This document shows, piece after piece, positions 25,201-28,200 of a stretch of DNA of 64,000 nt. The stretch is from NCBI RefSeq assembly GCF_057098645.1, contig NZ_CM169472.1; one strand, 5' to 3'. Position 1 is the stretch's first letter, and each line of letters opens with the position of its first letter. A program made the position numbers.

Positions 25201-28200
25201 AAGCCCTGATTCGCGGAACATTTCTGGCTGCTATTGGTTTTGAAGTGATTAAAATCGTGATGACCTACACCCTGCCATCGCTGATGAAATCCCCCTCTGG
25301 CGCAGCATTTGGTTCCGTGCTGGGGCTGATGGCATTTTTCTACTTCTTCGCCCGTTTGACGCTGTTTTGCGCGGCGTGGATTGCCACCGCCGAATATAAA
25401 GACGACCCGCGAATGCCGGGGAAAACGCAGCCTTAAAATAGGCCGGATGCGGCGTACGAATTTATTCGGCCTGGCTCCCCGTAGGCCGGATAAGATGCGC
25501 CAGCATCGCATCCGGCTATAATGCGCACATAACCTCTTGAAACTCTTCCCCAGAGCCTCTTCAGCCATCTATTTGGGAGCAAACAATTTCATGCCAACTC
25601 ATAACCCCAGCATATAAATCCAGTTGGTAACTTTTATTTAACCTGAAACCAGTTTTATCCACCATTTATAAAATTATGTGAAGCATTTCATAGAAGAAAA
25701 ATCACTGGCCTAAACATTATCCCCTTTTTGCCTTATTTTTGACCATTTCCGCGATTTGTTACACATTGAAATATCACTTTTGCTGTGCGTAATATGGCTA
25801 TTCGTTAGCCAAAAAATAAGAAAAGATTATGCAAGCAACAGCCACAACTCTCGACCACGAGCAAGAATACACGCCGATCAACTCGCGTAATAAAGTCCTT
25901 GTCGCCTCTCTCATTGGCACGGCCATTGAGTTCTTCGACTTTTATATTTACGCCACTGCGGCCGTTATTGTGTTTCCGCATATCTTCTTCCCGCAGGGCG
26001 ATCCAACGGCAGCAACGCTACAGTCGCTCGCCACCTTCGCCATCGCCTTCGTCGCGCGCCCCATTGGCTCTGCCGTTTTTGGTCATTTTGGCGATCGCGT
26101 TGGGCGTAAAGCGACGCTGGTCGCCTCGTTGCTAACGATGGGGATTTCGACCGTGGTGATTGGTTTGCTGCCGGGCTATGCCACGATTGGTATTTTCGCC
26201 CCGCTGCTGCTGGCGCTGGCTCGATTTGGTCAGGGTCTGGGCTTAGGCGGTGAATGGGGCGGCGCGGCGCTGCTGGCGACTGAAAACGCCCCACCGCGCA
26301 AACGTGCACTGTATGGCTCCTTCCCACAGCTGGGCGCACCGATTGGCTTCTTCTTTGCCAACGGCACTTTCTTGCTGCTTTCCTGGCTACTGACCGATGA
26401 GCAGTTTATGAGCTGGGGCTGGCGTGTGCCATTTATCTTCTCGGCGGTGCTGGTCATTATCGGCCTGTATGTTCGCGTGTCGCTGCATGAGTCGCCGGTG
26501 TTTGAGAAAGTCGCTAAAGCGAAAAAACAGGTGAAGATCCCGCTGGGTACGCTGCTAACCAAACATGTTCGCGTAACCGTACTGGGTACGTTCATTATGC
26601 TGGCAACCTATACGCTGTTTTACATCATGACGGTCTACTCTATGACCTTCAGTACCGCCGCCGCGCCAGTTGGGCTTGGCCTGCCGCGTAACGAAGTGTT
26701 GTGGATGCTGATGATGGCAGTTATTGGTTTTGGCGTGATGGTGCCAGTCGCCGGATTACTGGCTGATGCCTTTGGTCGCCGTAAAAGCATGGTAATTATC
26801 ACCACGCTGATCATCCTGTTCGCGCTGTTCGCCTTTAACCCGCTGCTCGGTTCTGGCAACCCGATTCTGGTTTTTGCCTTCCTGCTGCTGGGGTTAAGTC
26901 TGATGGGGCTGACCTTCGGGCCAATGGGCGCGCTGTTACCAGAGCTGTTCCCAACAGAAGTGCGTTACACCGGAGCATCATTCTCTTACAACGTAGCGTC
27001 GATTCTCGGGGCTTCCGTTGCACCATATATCGCAGCCTGGTTGCAGACTAACTACGGGTTAGGTGCGGTGGGGTTATATCTGGCGGCGATGGCTGGCTTG
27101 ACGTTAATCGCCCTGCTGCTGACCCATGAGACACGACATCAGTCGTTGTAATAAGTGTGAAAAGCCTGATGCGCTACGCTTATCAGGCCTGAATTTCCAT
27201 ACAATATATTGAATTCACAAGGATTTGTAGGCCGGATAAGGCGTTCACGCCGCATCCGGCATGAACAAAGCACACTTTGCCAACAATCTAAATCTGTTTA
27301 ATTGCCGGATGTCAGACATCCGGCAATTATCATCACTTCTTCATCTGCGACAAAATCGTCCGACACTGATTAGCCTCCCCTTCGGAAGGTGAGATCAGCG
27401 CCAGTAACGCCGCCGCCGGTGTTACCAGCGTTGCCAGTGCCGCAGCAACAGCACCACGGGCAATCAACGGTCCGGCTTTCACTCCAGCCTGCGGATTTTT
27501 AAACGTCCCCCGCACATACAGCGGCGAACGCAGTGTGATAATCCGAATACCTTTACTCTCCGGATCAATAGTCAAATCCAGCTGTTCCGAAGCAAAACTT
27601 GCCGTGCCGGTAACGTTAATCAACGCGTTCTCAGTATCGAAAGCAAAAATCTGCGGGCGCGCCACGCCGTTGGCAATATTCAGATTCGCCGCCGCGCAGT
27701 TCACCCGCACCTCATCATCACCAAATATCGCACCGACAATGTAGTTGCCGACATTCAGCCCAACAATCTCCATCAGGTTGCGGCTCACCAGCCCGTCATT
27801 CATCAACAGTTTCAGGTTGCCGTTACTGTTGCCTAAAAGTGCCGCCACCGAGTTACCGCTACCGCGCAGTTCCGCGTCACCGTTCATTTCCCCCAGCGTC
27901 TTCTGCATCAGTTCCACATCGGGCATCAGTTCTTTCAGTTTCAGTCGACGAGCCTGAATATCTGCCCGCCCCTGCATCGGCTTTTTATCGCCTTCCAGAT
28001 GAATATTCGCCGCAATGCTGCCACCCGCCATGCCAAATTTCAGCGGTTGCAGGCGCAGGTCAGCATTTTTGAGGATGATATGAGTAGAAAGATCGCTAAT
28101 CGGCAGGCTACTGCCATGCTCGATACGTCGGCCTTTGAAGCGAACATCGGCATCCATAACGTCCCATTTATCGGTTTCGAAGCGGTCATAAGGCAGCACT

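What the first reader, a model, noticed from the sequence alone, without database searches (positions are those of the whole stretch)
27160..27330. REP/BIME-type palindromic repeats in three intergenic regions
REP-like palindromic units (GCCGGATGCGGCG / TGATGCGCTACGCTTATCAGGCC types) occur downstream of yhjD (25441-25520), between yhjE and yhjG (27160-27330) and upstream of tRNA-Pro (57585-57700). They are typical enterobacterial extragenic repeats, not CRISPR or mobile elements.
Basis: partly seen in the sequence, partly recalled or inferred. Interest (0 to 1): 0.15.

Follow-up and report, generated by a model that had tools for sequence, protein, structure and literature searches.

The report
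Ordinary E. coli REP/BIME intergenic repeats
The three intergenic palindrome clusters are ordinary, already catalogued E. coli REP/BIME repeats (K-12 names REP263, REP264, REP267), and the hairpin at the right end of the flagged interval is a single-copy transcription terminator rather than a repeat.

Summary
The window is E. coli: 100% identical to O145:H28 genomes and 99% identical to K-12 at this locus. All three sites carry REP palindromic units in opposed pairs. A literature table based on the K-12 annotation names them REP263, REP264 and REP267.

- **yhjE/yhjG (27152-27292):** a complete 141-bp BIME-1, made of a short left flank, Z1, the long L linker with an IHF-like core, Y, and a conserved right flank. 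Profiles built from 57 unrelated copies in other genomes hit it at E=2e-29. Strain NGF1 has a clean empty site.
- **27299-27329:** not a REP. It is a perfect palindrome, one copy per genome, listed for K-12 as a mapped bidirectional terminator.
- **yhjD downstream:** one intact unit, plus one unit truncated by an 18-bp deletion relative to K-12.
- **proK site:** a single Y-linker-Z2 pair, above the Rfam naRNA4 threshold. It lies downstream of the minus-strand tRNA-Pro, not upstream.

"Not mobile" is only half right. REPs are regarded as RayT-mobilised, the sites are polymorphic, and the matching O145 genome has hicAB where rayT normally sits.

Verdict: already known, low interest.

The parts
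25440..25472 (+). Site A (K-12 REP263), unit 1. This is a truncated Y-type palindromic unit. Its 5' half, GCCGGATGCGGCG, is fused to a TTATTCGGCCT remnant. An 18-bp deletion relative to K-12 removed the 3' half of the hairpin.
   Evidence: Alignment with K-12. Partial Y match at 25442-25456, E=0.001. The residual fold is -15.6 kcal/mol, z -2.5. About 1,829 of 5,425 genomes carry the short allele.
25481..25518 (+). Site A, unit 2. This is a complete REP with GTAG at 25481-25484. The outer stem is Y-type (GCCGGAT/ATCCGGC) and the inner stem has Z2 length.
   Evidence: blastn-short against Z2 gives E=3.5e-4, and the first 14 nt match Y exactly. Rfam naRNA4 gives a partial hit of 30 bits. Fold -23.2 kcal/mol, z -5.9.
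27152..27292 (.). Site B (K-12 REP264). This is the whole 141-bp BIME-1 element. It begins directly after the yhjE stop codon and lies in the yhjE 3' UTR.
   Evidence: nhmmer with a profile of 57 non-orthologous copies: the full model hits 27158-27299 at E=2e-41, and the L+Y+B model hits 27198-27300 at E=2.2e-29. Strain NGF1 lacks exactly these 141 bp.
27152..27163 (.). Short left flank of the BIME-1. The consensus left-flank motif (TGAGACTGATGACAAACGCAAAA) is largely missing here.
   Evidence: These bases are part of the insert relative to NGF1. The left-flank-only profile finds nothing in the window.
27164..27189 (-). Z1 palindromic unit, GCCTGATGCGCTACGCTTATCAGGCC. It is followed by TGA instead of TAC, so the GTAG tag on the minus strand reads TCAG.
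   Evidence: At least 127 exact copies occur in E. albertii, E. coli, Pseudocitrobacter and Citrobacter genomes, and 116 of the 127 are followed by TAC. Fold -13.4 kcal/mol, z -3.5.
27190..27226 (.). L linker of the BIME-1. It carries an IHF-consensus-like core, ATTCAATATATTG, on the minus strand at 27202-27214.
   Evidence: The L-only profile has a unique hit in the window at 27198-27222, E=0.004. The core matches WATCAANNNNTTR at 8 of 9 specified positions. Rfam ES036/CssrF gives a weak hit, 27.1 bits, below the gathering score of 37.6. The distance from the Z1 end to the Y GTAG is 37 nt, against a family mode of 38 (51 copies) and 37 (11 copies).
27227..27261 (+). Y palindromic unit with an intact GTAG tag and the 2x2 mismatch bubble.
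   Evidence: 34 of 35 bases match the Y consensus, E=3.6e-13. Rfam naRNA4 first hairpin, 38.2 bits. Fold -20.9 kcal/mol, z -3.6.
27262..27292 (.). Conserved right-flank motif of the BIME-1, TGAACAAAGCACACTTTGCCAACAATCTAAA. It is roughly the inverted counterpart of the consensus left flank.
   Evidence: The right-flank-only profile has a unique hit in the window at 27262-27291, E=3.4e-5.
27299..27329 (.). Perfect 15+15 palindrome, TAATTGCCGGATGTC-A-GACATCCGGCAATTA, ending 3 nt from the yhjG stop codon. It is not a REP. It is a single-copy hairpin listed for K-12 as the bidirectional terminator of the convergent yhjE and yhjG transcripts.
   Evidence: 100% complementary arms. -20.9 kcal/mol on both strands, z -7.6 and -6.4. 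Median of one place per genome. Present alone in the NGF1 empty-site allele. Entry 290 of Table 16 in bioRxiv 10.64898/2026.03.23.713779, at K-12 3676253-3676289. No T-run follows it.
57590..57624 (+). Site C (K-12 REP267), Y unit. GTAG is present. The stem carries one compensated change (C-G to T-A) and one A-C mismatch.
   Evidence: blastn-short E=1.3e-6. Rfam alignment. The minus strand folds at -16.3 kcal/mol, z -4.3.
57625..57639 (.). Short linker between Y and Z2.
   Evidence: Rfam naRNA4 alignment, linker region.
57640..57675 (-). Site C, Z2 unit. On the minus strand the tag region reads GTAG-CCTGATAAG, one G short of the consensus.
   Evidence: blastn-short E=1.5e-9. The whole Y-linker-Z2 stretch at 57593-57673 scores 67.8 bits against Rfam RF02564, whose gathering score is 59.5. 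Fold -20.5 kcal/mol, z -4.4.
57730..57842 (-). Context only: the tRNA-Pro(CGG) gene proK (57766-57842) and its own terminator hairpin with a T-run (57730-57765). These lie between proK and the REP pair.
   Evidence: ARAGORN. Rfam tRNA. Fold -18.2 kcal/mol.

Best explanation
These are members of the enterobacterial REP (palindromic unit) family, arranged as BIMEs. They are short imperfect palindromes scattered in hundreds of copies at the 3' ends of genes.

**What each site is**
- Site B is a complete single-copy BIME-1: Z1, the L linker with an IHF-type site, Y, and conserved flanks. It is a 141-bp insertion into the yhjE 3' UTR, just upstream of the hairpin where the convergent yhjE and yhjG transcripts end.
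- Site A is a decayed REP pair after yhjD.
- Site C is one Y-linker-Z2 pair after the proK terminator.

**How they most likely work (inferred from the family, not shown here)**
- In RNA, the G+C-rich hairpins impede 3'-to-5' exonucleases and so protect the upstream message.
- They can attenuate read-through, partly through Rho.
- In DNA, the L linker offers an IHF site.

**How they arose**
They most likely spread through the RayT (TnpA_REP) single-strand transposase acting on the GTAG-tagged hairpins. In this lineage they are probably immobile relics. The effect on fitness is small, because about a third of E. coli genomes lack the site B element altogether.
For: **Identity**
- Y, Z1 and Z2 matches occur only at the three sites.
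- Rfam's Y-linker-Z2 model scores above its gathering threshold at site C and gives partial hits at sites A and B.
- Profiles from 57 non-orthologous BIME-1 copies hit site B, both as a whole and for the L and right-flank parts separately.
- Z1 occurs in at least 127 exact copies in four genera. Of these, 90 are followed by a Y unit, at a modal spacing of 38 or 37 nt.
- The query finds a median of 38-39 places per E. coli genome.
- The units are extragenic and lie at gene 3' ends.
- The K-12 loci are named REP263, REP264 and REP267.
- The family definitions of BIME-1 and BIME-2 come from PMC3333891.

**Structure is maintained**
- Every unit folds better than its shuffles.
- The four substitutions between K-12 and the window in REP267 fall in loops or bubbles, or turn a G-C pair into G-U.

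**Insertion behaviour**
- A clean 141-bp presence/absence against NGF1. [quoted passage not shown]

**Function, from the literature**
- REPs act as context-dependent 3' UTR terminators and stabilisers, and about 60% lie between convergent genes.
- Rho-binding (rut) peaks abut REP263 and overlap REP267.

**Relic status**
- rayT is found in 3,575 of 5,426 genomes.
- In O145 RM9872, which matches the window exactly, hicAB fills the slot between yafL and lfhA where rayT normally sits.
Against: - No expression, RNA half-life, IHF-binding or Rho data exist for this strain, so every functional statement is by analogy.
- The mapped transcript ends in K-12 sit at the separate hairpin, not at the BIME-1, so site B is not needed for termination.
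- The 2026 preprint found no genome-wide effect of terminal REPs on mRNA half-life.
- Several units lack defining details: the Z1 has TCAG instead of GTAG, the left-flank motif is missing, unit A1 is truncated, and the Z2 tag region is one base short.
- I could not establish whether the 141 bp were inserted or deleted, because no outgroup was available.
- rayT was checked only at its usual locus, not across the whole O145 genome.
Confidence: 0.9

Rival explanations
1. The REP hairpins are themselves the main transcription terminators of yhjD, yhjE and proK, intrinsic or Rho-dependent, rather than passive 3' UTR passengers or stabilisers.
For: Rho-binding (rut) peaks from an in vitro screen abut REP263 on the + strand and overlap REP267 by 85 bp on the - strand, in the sense orientation. 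REP325 was shown to be a partly Rho-dependent attenuator. 78 REPs lie in or near the 306 mapped bidirectional terminators between convergent genes.
Against: - None of the REP hairpins is followed by a T-run.
- At site B the mapped overlap of the convergent 3' ends is the separate hairpin 29 bp away, not the REPs.
- proK has its own canonical terminator between the tRNA gene and the REP pair.
- A third of E. coli genomes lack the site B element.
Confidence: 0.2
2. The sites encode dedicated small RNAs: a nucleoid-associated naRNA4-like RNA at 57593-57673 and an ES036/CssrF-like RNA at 27185-27226.
For: Rfam RF02564 (naRNA4) scores 67.8 bits against a gathering score of 59.5. ES036 gives a weak 27.1-bit hit over the L linker. 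Many REPs are transcribed (PMC4550694).
Against: - The naRNA4 model is simply one Y-linker-Z2 BIME unit, so any such pair will match it.
- The better-scoring strand (+) is opposite to local transcription, since proK and dppA are on the minus strand.
- The one promoter-like match nearby, on the minus strand at 57530-57501, lies downstream of the pair.
- ES036 is below threshold.
- The 2026 preprint reports that REP325 and naRNA4 do not compact the nucleoid and act locally as a 3' UTR element.
Confidence: 0.05
3. The elements are currently active mobile DNA in this strain.
For: Alleles differ in REP content at all three sites across E. coli. TnpA_REP cleaves and recombines BIMEs in vitro (PMC3333891).
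Against: - The canonical rayT slot in the matching O145 genome holds hicAB.
- Several units have lost the GTAG tag or half their hairpin, features that TnpA_REP needs in vitro.
- The alleles are shared by hundreds to thousands of genomes, so they are old polymorphisms.
Confidence: 0.05
4. The palindromes are chance or locus-specific hairpins unrelated to the REP family.
For: This does hold for one part of the flagged interval: the 27299-27329 hairpin is single-copy. The short core GCCKGATGCG alone is not enriched in the window, at 13 matches against 13.2 expected.
Against: Full-length units match independent family profiles at E values from 1e-6 to 1e-41, and they recur dozens of times per genome.
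Confidence: 0.01

Closest known systems
BIME-1 (Z1-L-Y; also called RIP or RIB elements), here E. coli K-12 REP264 between yhjE and yhjG
   Same: - One Z1 and one Y unit in opposite orientation.
- A long conserved L linker with an IHF-type core.
- Single copy, about 140 bp, at a convergent 3' junction.
- Either present or absent among strains.
- 99% identical to the K-12 locus.
   Different: This copy lacks most of the consensus left-flank motif. Its Z1 is followed by TGA rather than TAC, so it has no GTAG tag. IHF binding was not tested.
BIME-2 / REP325 unit (Y-linker-Z2; Rfam RF02564 naRNA4), here K-12 REP267 near proK
   Same: The same two hairpins in the same order with a short linker. The score is above Rfam's gathering threshold.
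   Different: - It is a single pair, not a tandem array.
- The stems are slightly decayed, with one A-C mismatch and one base missing next to the Z2 tag.
- It lies on the strand opposite to local transcription.
- K-12 carries an extra 169-bp segment between it and proK that this strain lacks.
K-12 REP263 (yhjD-yhjE)
   Same: Same position and same second unit. A Rho-binding peak was mapped directly downstream in K-12.
   Different: In this strain an 18-bp deletion removes the 3' half of the first unit. About a third of E. coli genomes share that allele.
Bidirectional terminator hairpins between convergent genes (Table 16 of bioRxiv 10.64898/2026.03.23.713779, taken from that paper's reference 47)
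   Same: The 27299-27329 palindrome is entry 290 of that list (yhjG:yhjE, -20.9 kcal/mol). It folds identically on both strands.
   Different: It has no T-run on either side. Its stem shares GCCGGATG/CATCCGGC with Y REPs, but it has no GTAG tag and no mismatch bubble, and it is single-copy.

Membership tests
REP / palindromic unit (Y, Z1, Z2) | A 30-40 nt imperfect palindrome able to form a hairpin | tested here: met
   All units fold at -13 to -23 kcal/mol, z from -2.5 to -5.9. Y and Z2 show the 2x2 internal bubble.
REP / palindromic unit (Y, Z1, Z2) | Sequence match to the Y, Z1 or Z2 consensus | tested here: met
   blastn-short: Y at 27227-27261 E=3.6e-13, Y at 57590-57621 E=1.3e-6, Z2 at 57640-57672 E=1.5e-9, and 25481-25512 E=3.5e-4. 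The Y and Z2 consensus sequences were taken from Rfam RF02564. Z1 is supported independently by at least 127 exact copies elsewhere.
REP / palindromic unit (Y, Z1, Z2) | Conserved GTAG tetranucleotide 5' of the stem | tested here: inconclusive
   GTAG is present at 25481, 27227 and 57590, and at the Z2 of site C (where it is followed by a 1-nt deletion). It is absent at the Z1 of site B (TCAG) and at the truncated unit A1.
REP / palindromic unit (Y, Z1, Z2) | High copy number, dispersed, extragenic | tested here: met
   Median of 38-39 places per genome, limited by the cap, in 5,425 of 5,426 genomes. All units lie between annotated genes.
REP / palindromic unit (Y, Z1, Z2) | Annotated as REP in the K-12 reference | tested here: met
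   REP263 and REP267, with coordinates, and REP264 are listed in supplementary Tables 15 and 16 of bioRxiv 10.64898/2026.03.23.713779. The RefSeq copy available here carries no repeat features.
BIME-1 | One Z1 and one Y in inverse orientation, single copy | tested here: met
   Z1 at 27164-27189 (REP sense on the minus strand) and Y at 27227-27261 (plus strand), with no tandem repeat. Definition from PMC3333891.
BIME-1 | Long conserved L linker carrying an IHF site | tested here: met
   The L-only profile from 57 other copies has a unique window hit, E=0.004. The core ATTCAATATATTG matches WATCAANNNNTTR at 8 of 9 specified positions. The spacing of 37 nt compares with a family mode of 38 or 37.
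BIME-1 | IHF actually binds the linker | not testable with these tools
   This needs EMSA or ChIP.
BIME-1 | About 140 bp, with conserved flanks on both sides | tested here: inconclusive
   The size of 141 bp and the right flank are met (E=3.4e-5). The left-flank profile finds nothing, and only 12 nt precede Z1.
BIME-1 | Present or absent among isolates | tested here: met
   About 3,596 of 5,425 genomes carry it. NGF1 has a 40-bp empty site. Other strains carry an unrelated 172-233 bp G+C-rich repeat. The literature statement is in PMC1187871.
BIME-2 | Y and Z2 separated by a short linker | tested here: met
   Rfam RF02564 scores 67.8 bits against a gathering score of 59.5 at 57593-57673.
BIME-2 | Multiple tandem copies | tested here: not met
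   There is only one Y-Z2 pair at site C, so it is a single BIME-2-type unit, not an array.
naRNA4 (nucleoid-associated sRNA) | A discrete transcript that binds HU and acts on the nucleoid | not testable with these tools
   Only the sequence and structure match could be tested, and it was met. The function itself is disputed.
Intrinsic (Rho-independent) terminator, for the 27299-27329 hairpin | G+C-rich stem followed by a T-run | tested here: not met
   The stem is present (-20.9 kcal/mol) but neither strand has a T-run. Termination there rests on published 3'-end mapping in K-12.
CRISPR array | Regularly spaced direct repeats with unique spacers | tested here: not met
   The units are inverted, not direct, with only two per site.

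The most novel reading that the evidence does not exclude
The gene-end junctions around yhjE are recurrent landing sites for different small repeat families.
- The yhjE-yhjG spacer exists in three states: BIME-1, an empty site with the hairpin only, and an unrelated G+C-rich palindromic repeat.
- The yhjD-yhjE spacer exists as an intact REP pair, a truncated REP pair, or the same G+C-rich repeat.
- The alleles at the two sites combine semi-independently.

If these alternative 3' UTRs measurably change yhjE or yhjG expression, the locus would be a natural example of repeat-driven regulatory variation between E. coli lineages. This would include lineages such as O145, which appear to have lost rayT and so keep their BIMEs as fossils.
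Probability: 0.15. Interest if true: 0.3.

Novelty: already known. Interest (0 to 1): 0.08.

Why it matters
It matters little beyond correct annotation. Three points are useful to an annotator:
- These stretches should be labelled REP/BIME (K-12 REP263, REP264 and REP267), not sRNA genes, even though Rfam's naRNA4 model fires on one of them.
- The terminator hairpin of yhjE and yhjG should be kept separate from the repeat.
- The sites are variable among strains. They are therefore poor anchors for primer design or synteny work, but they could serve as lineage markers.

Tried and rejected
- A fuzzy-regex scan for the units timed out. I replaced it with blastn-short and nhmmer.
- The RefSeq K-12 copy available here has no repeat_region features, so the REP names came from a paper's supplementary tables instead.
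- The original BIME and RIB papers (PMC333889, PMC413762) are not held. The names 'A' and 'B' for the flank motifs, and 'RIP/RIB', therefore rest on my memory.
- The short core GCCKGATGCG is not enriched on its own. Only full units are informative.
- A blastn search with the 47-nt L linker found only the orthologous locus, which says nothing about paralogues. The profile search settled that point.
- A 2-mismatch REP-like hit at 21446-21459 lies inside a coding region and is a chance match.
No copy of it is in the window.
- CRISPR, IS or MITE with its own transposase, and independent sRNA genes were all considered and rejected (see the rival explanations).
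Full report
**Source and context**

The window is E. coli. The yhjE-yhjG region is 100% identical to O145:H28 genomes such as RM9872 and 99% identical to K-12 MG1655. yhjD runs at 24423-25436 on the + strand, yhjE at 25829-27151 on the + strand, and yhjG at 27333-29408 on the - strand. tRNA-Pro(CGG), proK, lies at 57766-57842 on the minus strand.

**Observation check**

- Both quoted motifs are present at the stated places.
- I scanned the whole window with Y, Z1 and Z2 consensus units. Y and Z2 were taken from the Rfam naRNA4 consensus, which is a Y-linker-Z2 unit according to PMC4550694. Significant matches occur only in the three named intergenic regions.
- GTAGGCCKGATAAG occurs 14 times at up to 3 mismatches against 5.6 expected, and no shuffle of 100 reached that count.
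- The 10-mer core alone is not enriched.
- Each unit folds better than its shuffles.
- The family is highly repeated, with a median of 38-39 places per genome (limited by the cap) in 5,425 of 5,426 complete E. coli genomes.

**Site B (yhjE/yhjG)**

The literature defines BIME-1 as one Z1 plus one Y in inverse orientation. The two units are separated by a long, conserved L linker that often carries an IHF site, and the element occurs as a single copy (PMC3333891). [quoted passage not shown]

To test this independently, I scanned one genome per species for the exact 26-nt Z1.
- They came from E. albertii, an E. coli strain, Pseudocitrobacter faecalis and Citrobacter species. None was the yhjE orthologue.
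- 116 copies are followed by TAC.
- 90 are followed by a Y unit, with a modal spacing of 38 nt (51 copies) or 37 nt (11 copies). The window has 37.

The copies share a consensus: TGAGACTGATGACAAACGCAAAA-Z1-TAC-AAGGTTTCTGCAATATATTGAATTTGCACGATTTT-Y-TGAACAAAGCGCACTTTGTCAGCAATCTGA. The two flanks are roughly inverted copies of each other.

Profiles built from 57 of these copies hit the window as follows:

| Profile | Window hit | E-value |
|---|---|---|
| Full model | 27158-27299 | 2e-41 |
| L + Y + right flank | 27198-27300 | 2.2e-29 |
| L only | 27198-27222 | 0.004 |
| Right flank only | 27262-27291 | 3.4e-5 |
| Left flank only | none | none |

The L linker contains ATTCAATATATTG on the minus strand at 27202-27214. 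This matches the IHF consensus WATCAANNNNTTR, which I cite from established knowledge, at 8 of 9 specified positions.

This copy has two defects. Its left flank is truncated, and TGA replaces TAC after Z1, so the Z1 has no GTAG tag. TnpA_REP needs that tag in vitro.

**Empty site and other alleles at site B**

- About 3,596 of 5,425 genomes carry the BIME-1 allele.
- Strain NGF1 has a 40-bp spacer made of the hairpin alone. Alignment places the difference at exactly window 27152-27292, which is 141 bp, with a 2-bp AA ambiguity at the junction.
- A third group (O152:H23, MS6193, FDAARGOS_1371, K_EC180) has 172-233 bp of an unrelated G+C-rich palindromic repeat (CCCTC...GAGGG) and no hairpin.
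- I could not tell whether the 141 bp were inserted or deleted, because no outgroup was available.

**The 27299-27329 hairpin is not a REP**

It is a perfect 15+15 palindrome that folds at -20.9 kcal/mol on either strand. It is single-copy in every genome that has it, and it is present on its own in the NGF1 allele.

Table 16 of bioRxiv 10.64898/2026.03.23.713779 lists K-12 3676253-3676289, equivalent to window 27296-27332, as bidirectional terminator 290 for yhjG:yhjE, 29 bp from REP264.

It follows, by inference, that yhjE transcripts carry the whole BIME-1 in their 3' UTR, while yhjG transcripts end before reaching it. No T-run follows the hairpin on either strand, so it is not a textbook intrinsic terminator.

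**Site A (after yhjD; K-12 REP263)**

- K-12 has an intact Y-type hairpin, GCCGGATGCGGCGTAAACGCCTTATCCGGC, then a remnant, then a second complete unit.
- The window lacks 18 bp (TAAACGCCTTATCCGGCA), so the first unit is only half present.
- By identity band, about 1,829 genomes carry the short allele and about 3,006 carry the K-12 form. Others, such as K_EC180, have the G+C-rich repeat instead.
- The second unit (25481-25518) is intact, at -23.2 kcal/mol.
- A Rho-binding peak from an in vitro screen starts right after REP263 in K-12, at 3674473-3674610 on the + strand.

**Site C (K-12 REP267)**

- Y (57590-57624), a 15-nt linker and Z2 (57640-57675) together score 67.8 bits against Rfam RF02564, above its gathering score of 59.5.
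- The model is one BIME-2-type unit, so the hit identifies the repeat and not a dedicated sRNA gene. The recent preprint also reports that REP325 and naRNA4 act locally and do not compact the nucleoid.
- proK is on the minus strand and has its own terminator at 57730-57765.
- A Rho-binding peak overlaps REP267 on the minus strand in K-12.
- The differences between K-12 and the window within the pair are four substitutions and two single-base indels. The substitutions fall in loops or bubbles or turn a G-C pair into G-U. The indels lie in the linker and next to the Z2 tag. This fits selection, or gene conversion, for the fold.

**Mobility**

REP/BIMEs are regarded as non-autonomous elements handled by RayT/TnpA_REP (PMC3333891, PMC2817692). 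rayT is present in 3,575 of 5,426 complete genomes. In O145 RM9872 the slot between yafL and the lfhA pseudogene, where K-12 has rayT, holds hicAB. The repeats here are therefore probably relics. I did not search the whole O145 genome.

**Mechanism**

- *Shown here:* the sequence identity, the architecture, the folds, the copy number and the strain polymorphism.
- *Inferred from the family:* protection of the upstream mRNA against 3' exonucleases, partial Rho-linked attenuation at sites A and C, and IHF binding at the L linker.

The absence of the site B element from about a third of E. coli genomes argues that any effect is modest.

**Verdict**

This is an ordinary, already catalogued feature.

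Noticed in passing
window 27299-27329: A perfect 31-nt palindrome 3 nt from the yhjG stop codon. It is single-copy per genome and is listed for K-12 as the bidirectional terminator of yhjE and yhjG. Its stem reuses the REP-like GCCGGATG/CATCCGGC but has no GTAG tag, no bubble and no T-run.
   Followed up: yes
yhjE-yhjG spacer: window 27152-27332 vs L003 (NGF1), L004-L006, L133: There are three allelic states among E. coli: BIME-1 plus hairpin (181 bp, about two thirds of genomes), hairpin only (40 bp), and an unrelated G+C-rich CCCTC...GAGGG palindromic repeat (172-233 bp, no hairpin). The last resembles what I recall as boxC, but I could not verify that.
   Followed up: partly
yhjD-yhjE spacer: window 25455/25456 vs L001 3395-3412; L129 560-680: An 18-bp deletion removes half of the first REP unit in this strain and in about 1,800 other genomes. 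Some strains (K_EC180) have the G+C-rich repeat here instead of REPs. Alleles at this site and at yhjE-yhjG occur in several combinations.
   Followed up: partly
window 57675/57676 vs L128 (K-12 3708359-3708527, approx.): K-12 has an extra 169-bp segment between REP267 and proK. It repeats the proK 3' end (GGTCGGTGATAGAGGATT), the proK terminator and the small GAACCTCC hairpin, and adds 57 nt of other sequence. It looks like an att-type scar of an integrated element at proK. The window strain has a single copy.
   Followed up: no
L132 1118-1745 (O145 RM9872, 251118-251745): A hicAB toxin-antitoxin pair sits between yafL and the lfhA pseudogene, where K-12 has the REP transposase gene rayT. rayT is found in only 66% of complete E. 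coli genomes.
   Followed up: partly
window 57684-57707: A small 8-bp-stem inverted repeat, GAACCTCC(N8)GGAGGTTC, lies between the REP pair and the proK terminator. It is not REP-like, and it is duplicated in K-12 as part of the 169-bp segment.
   Followed up: no
window 16708-16821, 10858-10929, 49611-49676, 1155-1186: Other Rfam hits above threshold: GadY, ES205, the rdlD antitoxin RNA, and the shuA/chuA 5' UTR thermoregulator. The last implies a haem-uptake chu locus, which I recall K-12 lacks.
   Followed up: no
L008, L013, L016: Contigs in metagenome-assembled genomes labelled Bacteroides, Bacteroidales and Oscillospiraceae carry exact Z1 units. L008 has a full BIME-1 architecture, and L013 and L016 have a Z1-Y pair. 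They are most likely enterobacterial contigs that were mis-binned.
   Followed up: no
window 27185-27226 (-): A weak Rfam ES036 (CssrF) match, 27.1 bits against a gathering score of 37.6, falls on the L linker. This suggests that the 'sRNA' family is modelled on BIME-1 linker sequence.
   Followed up: partly
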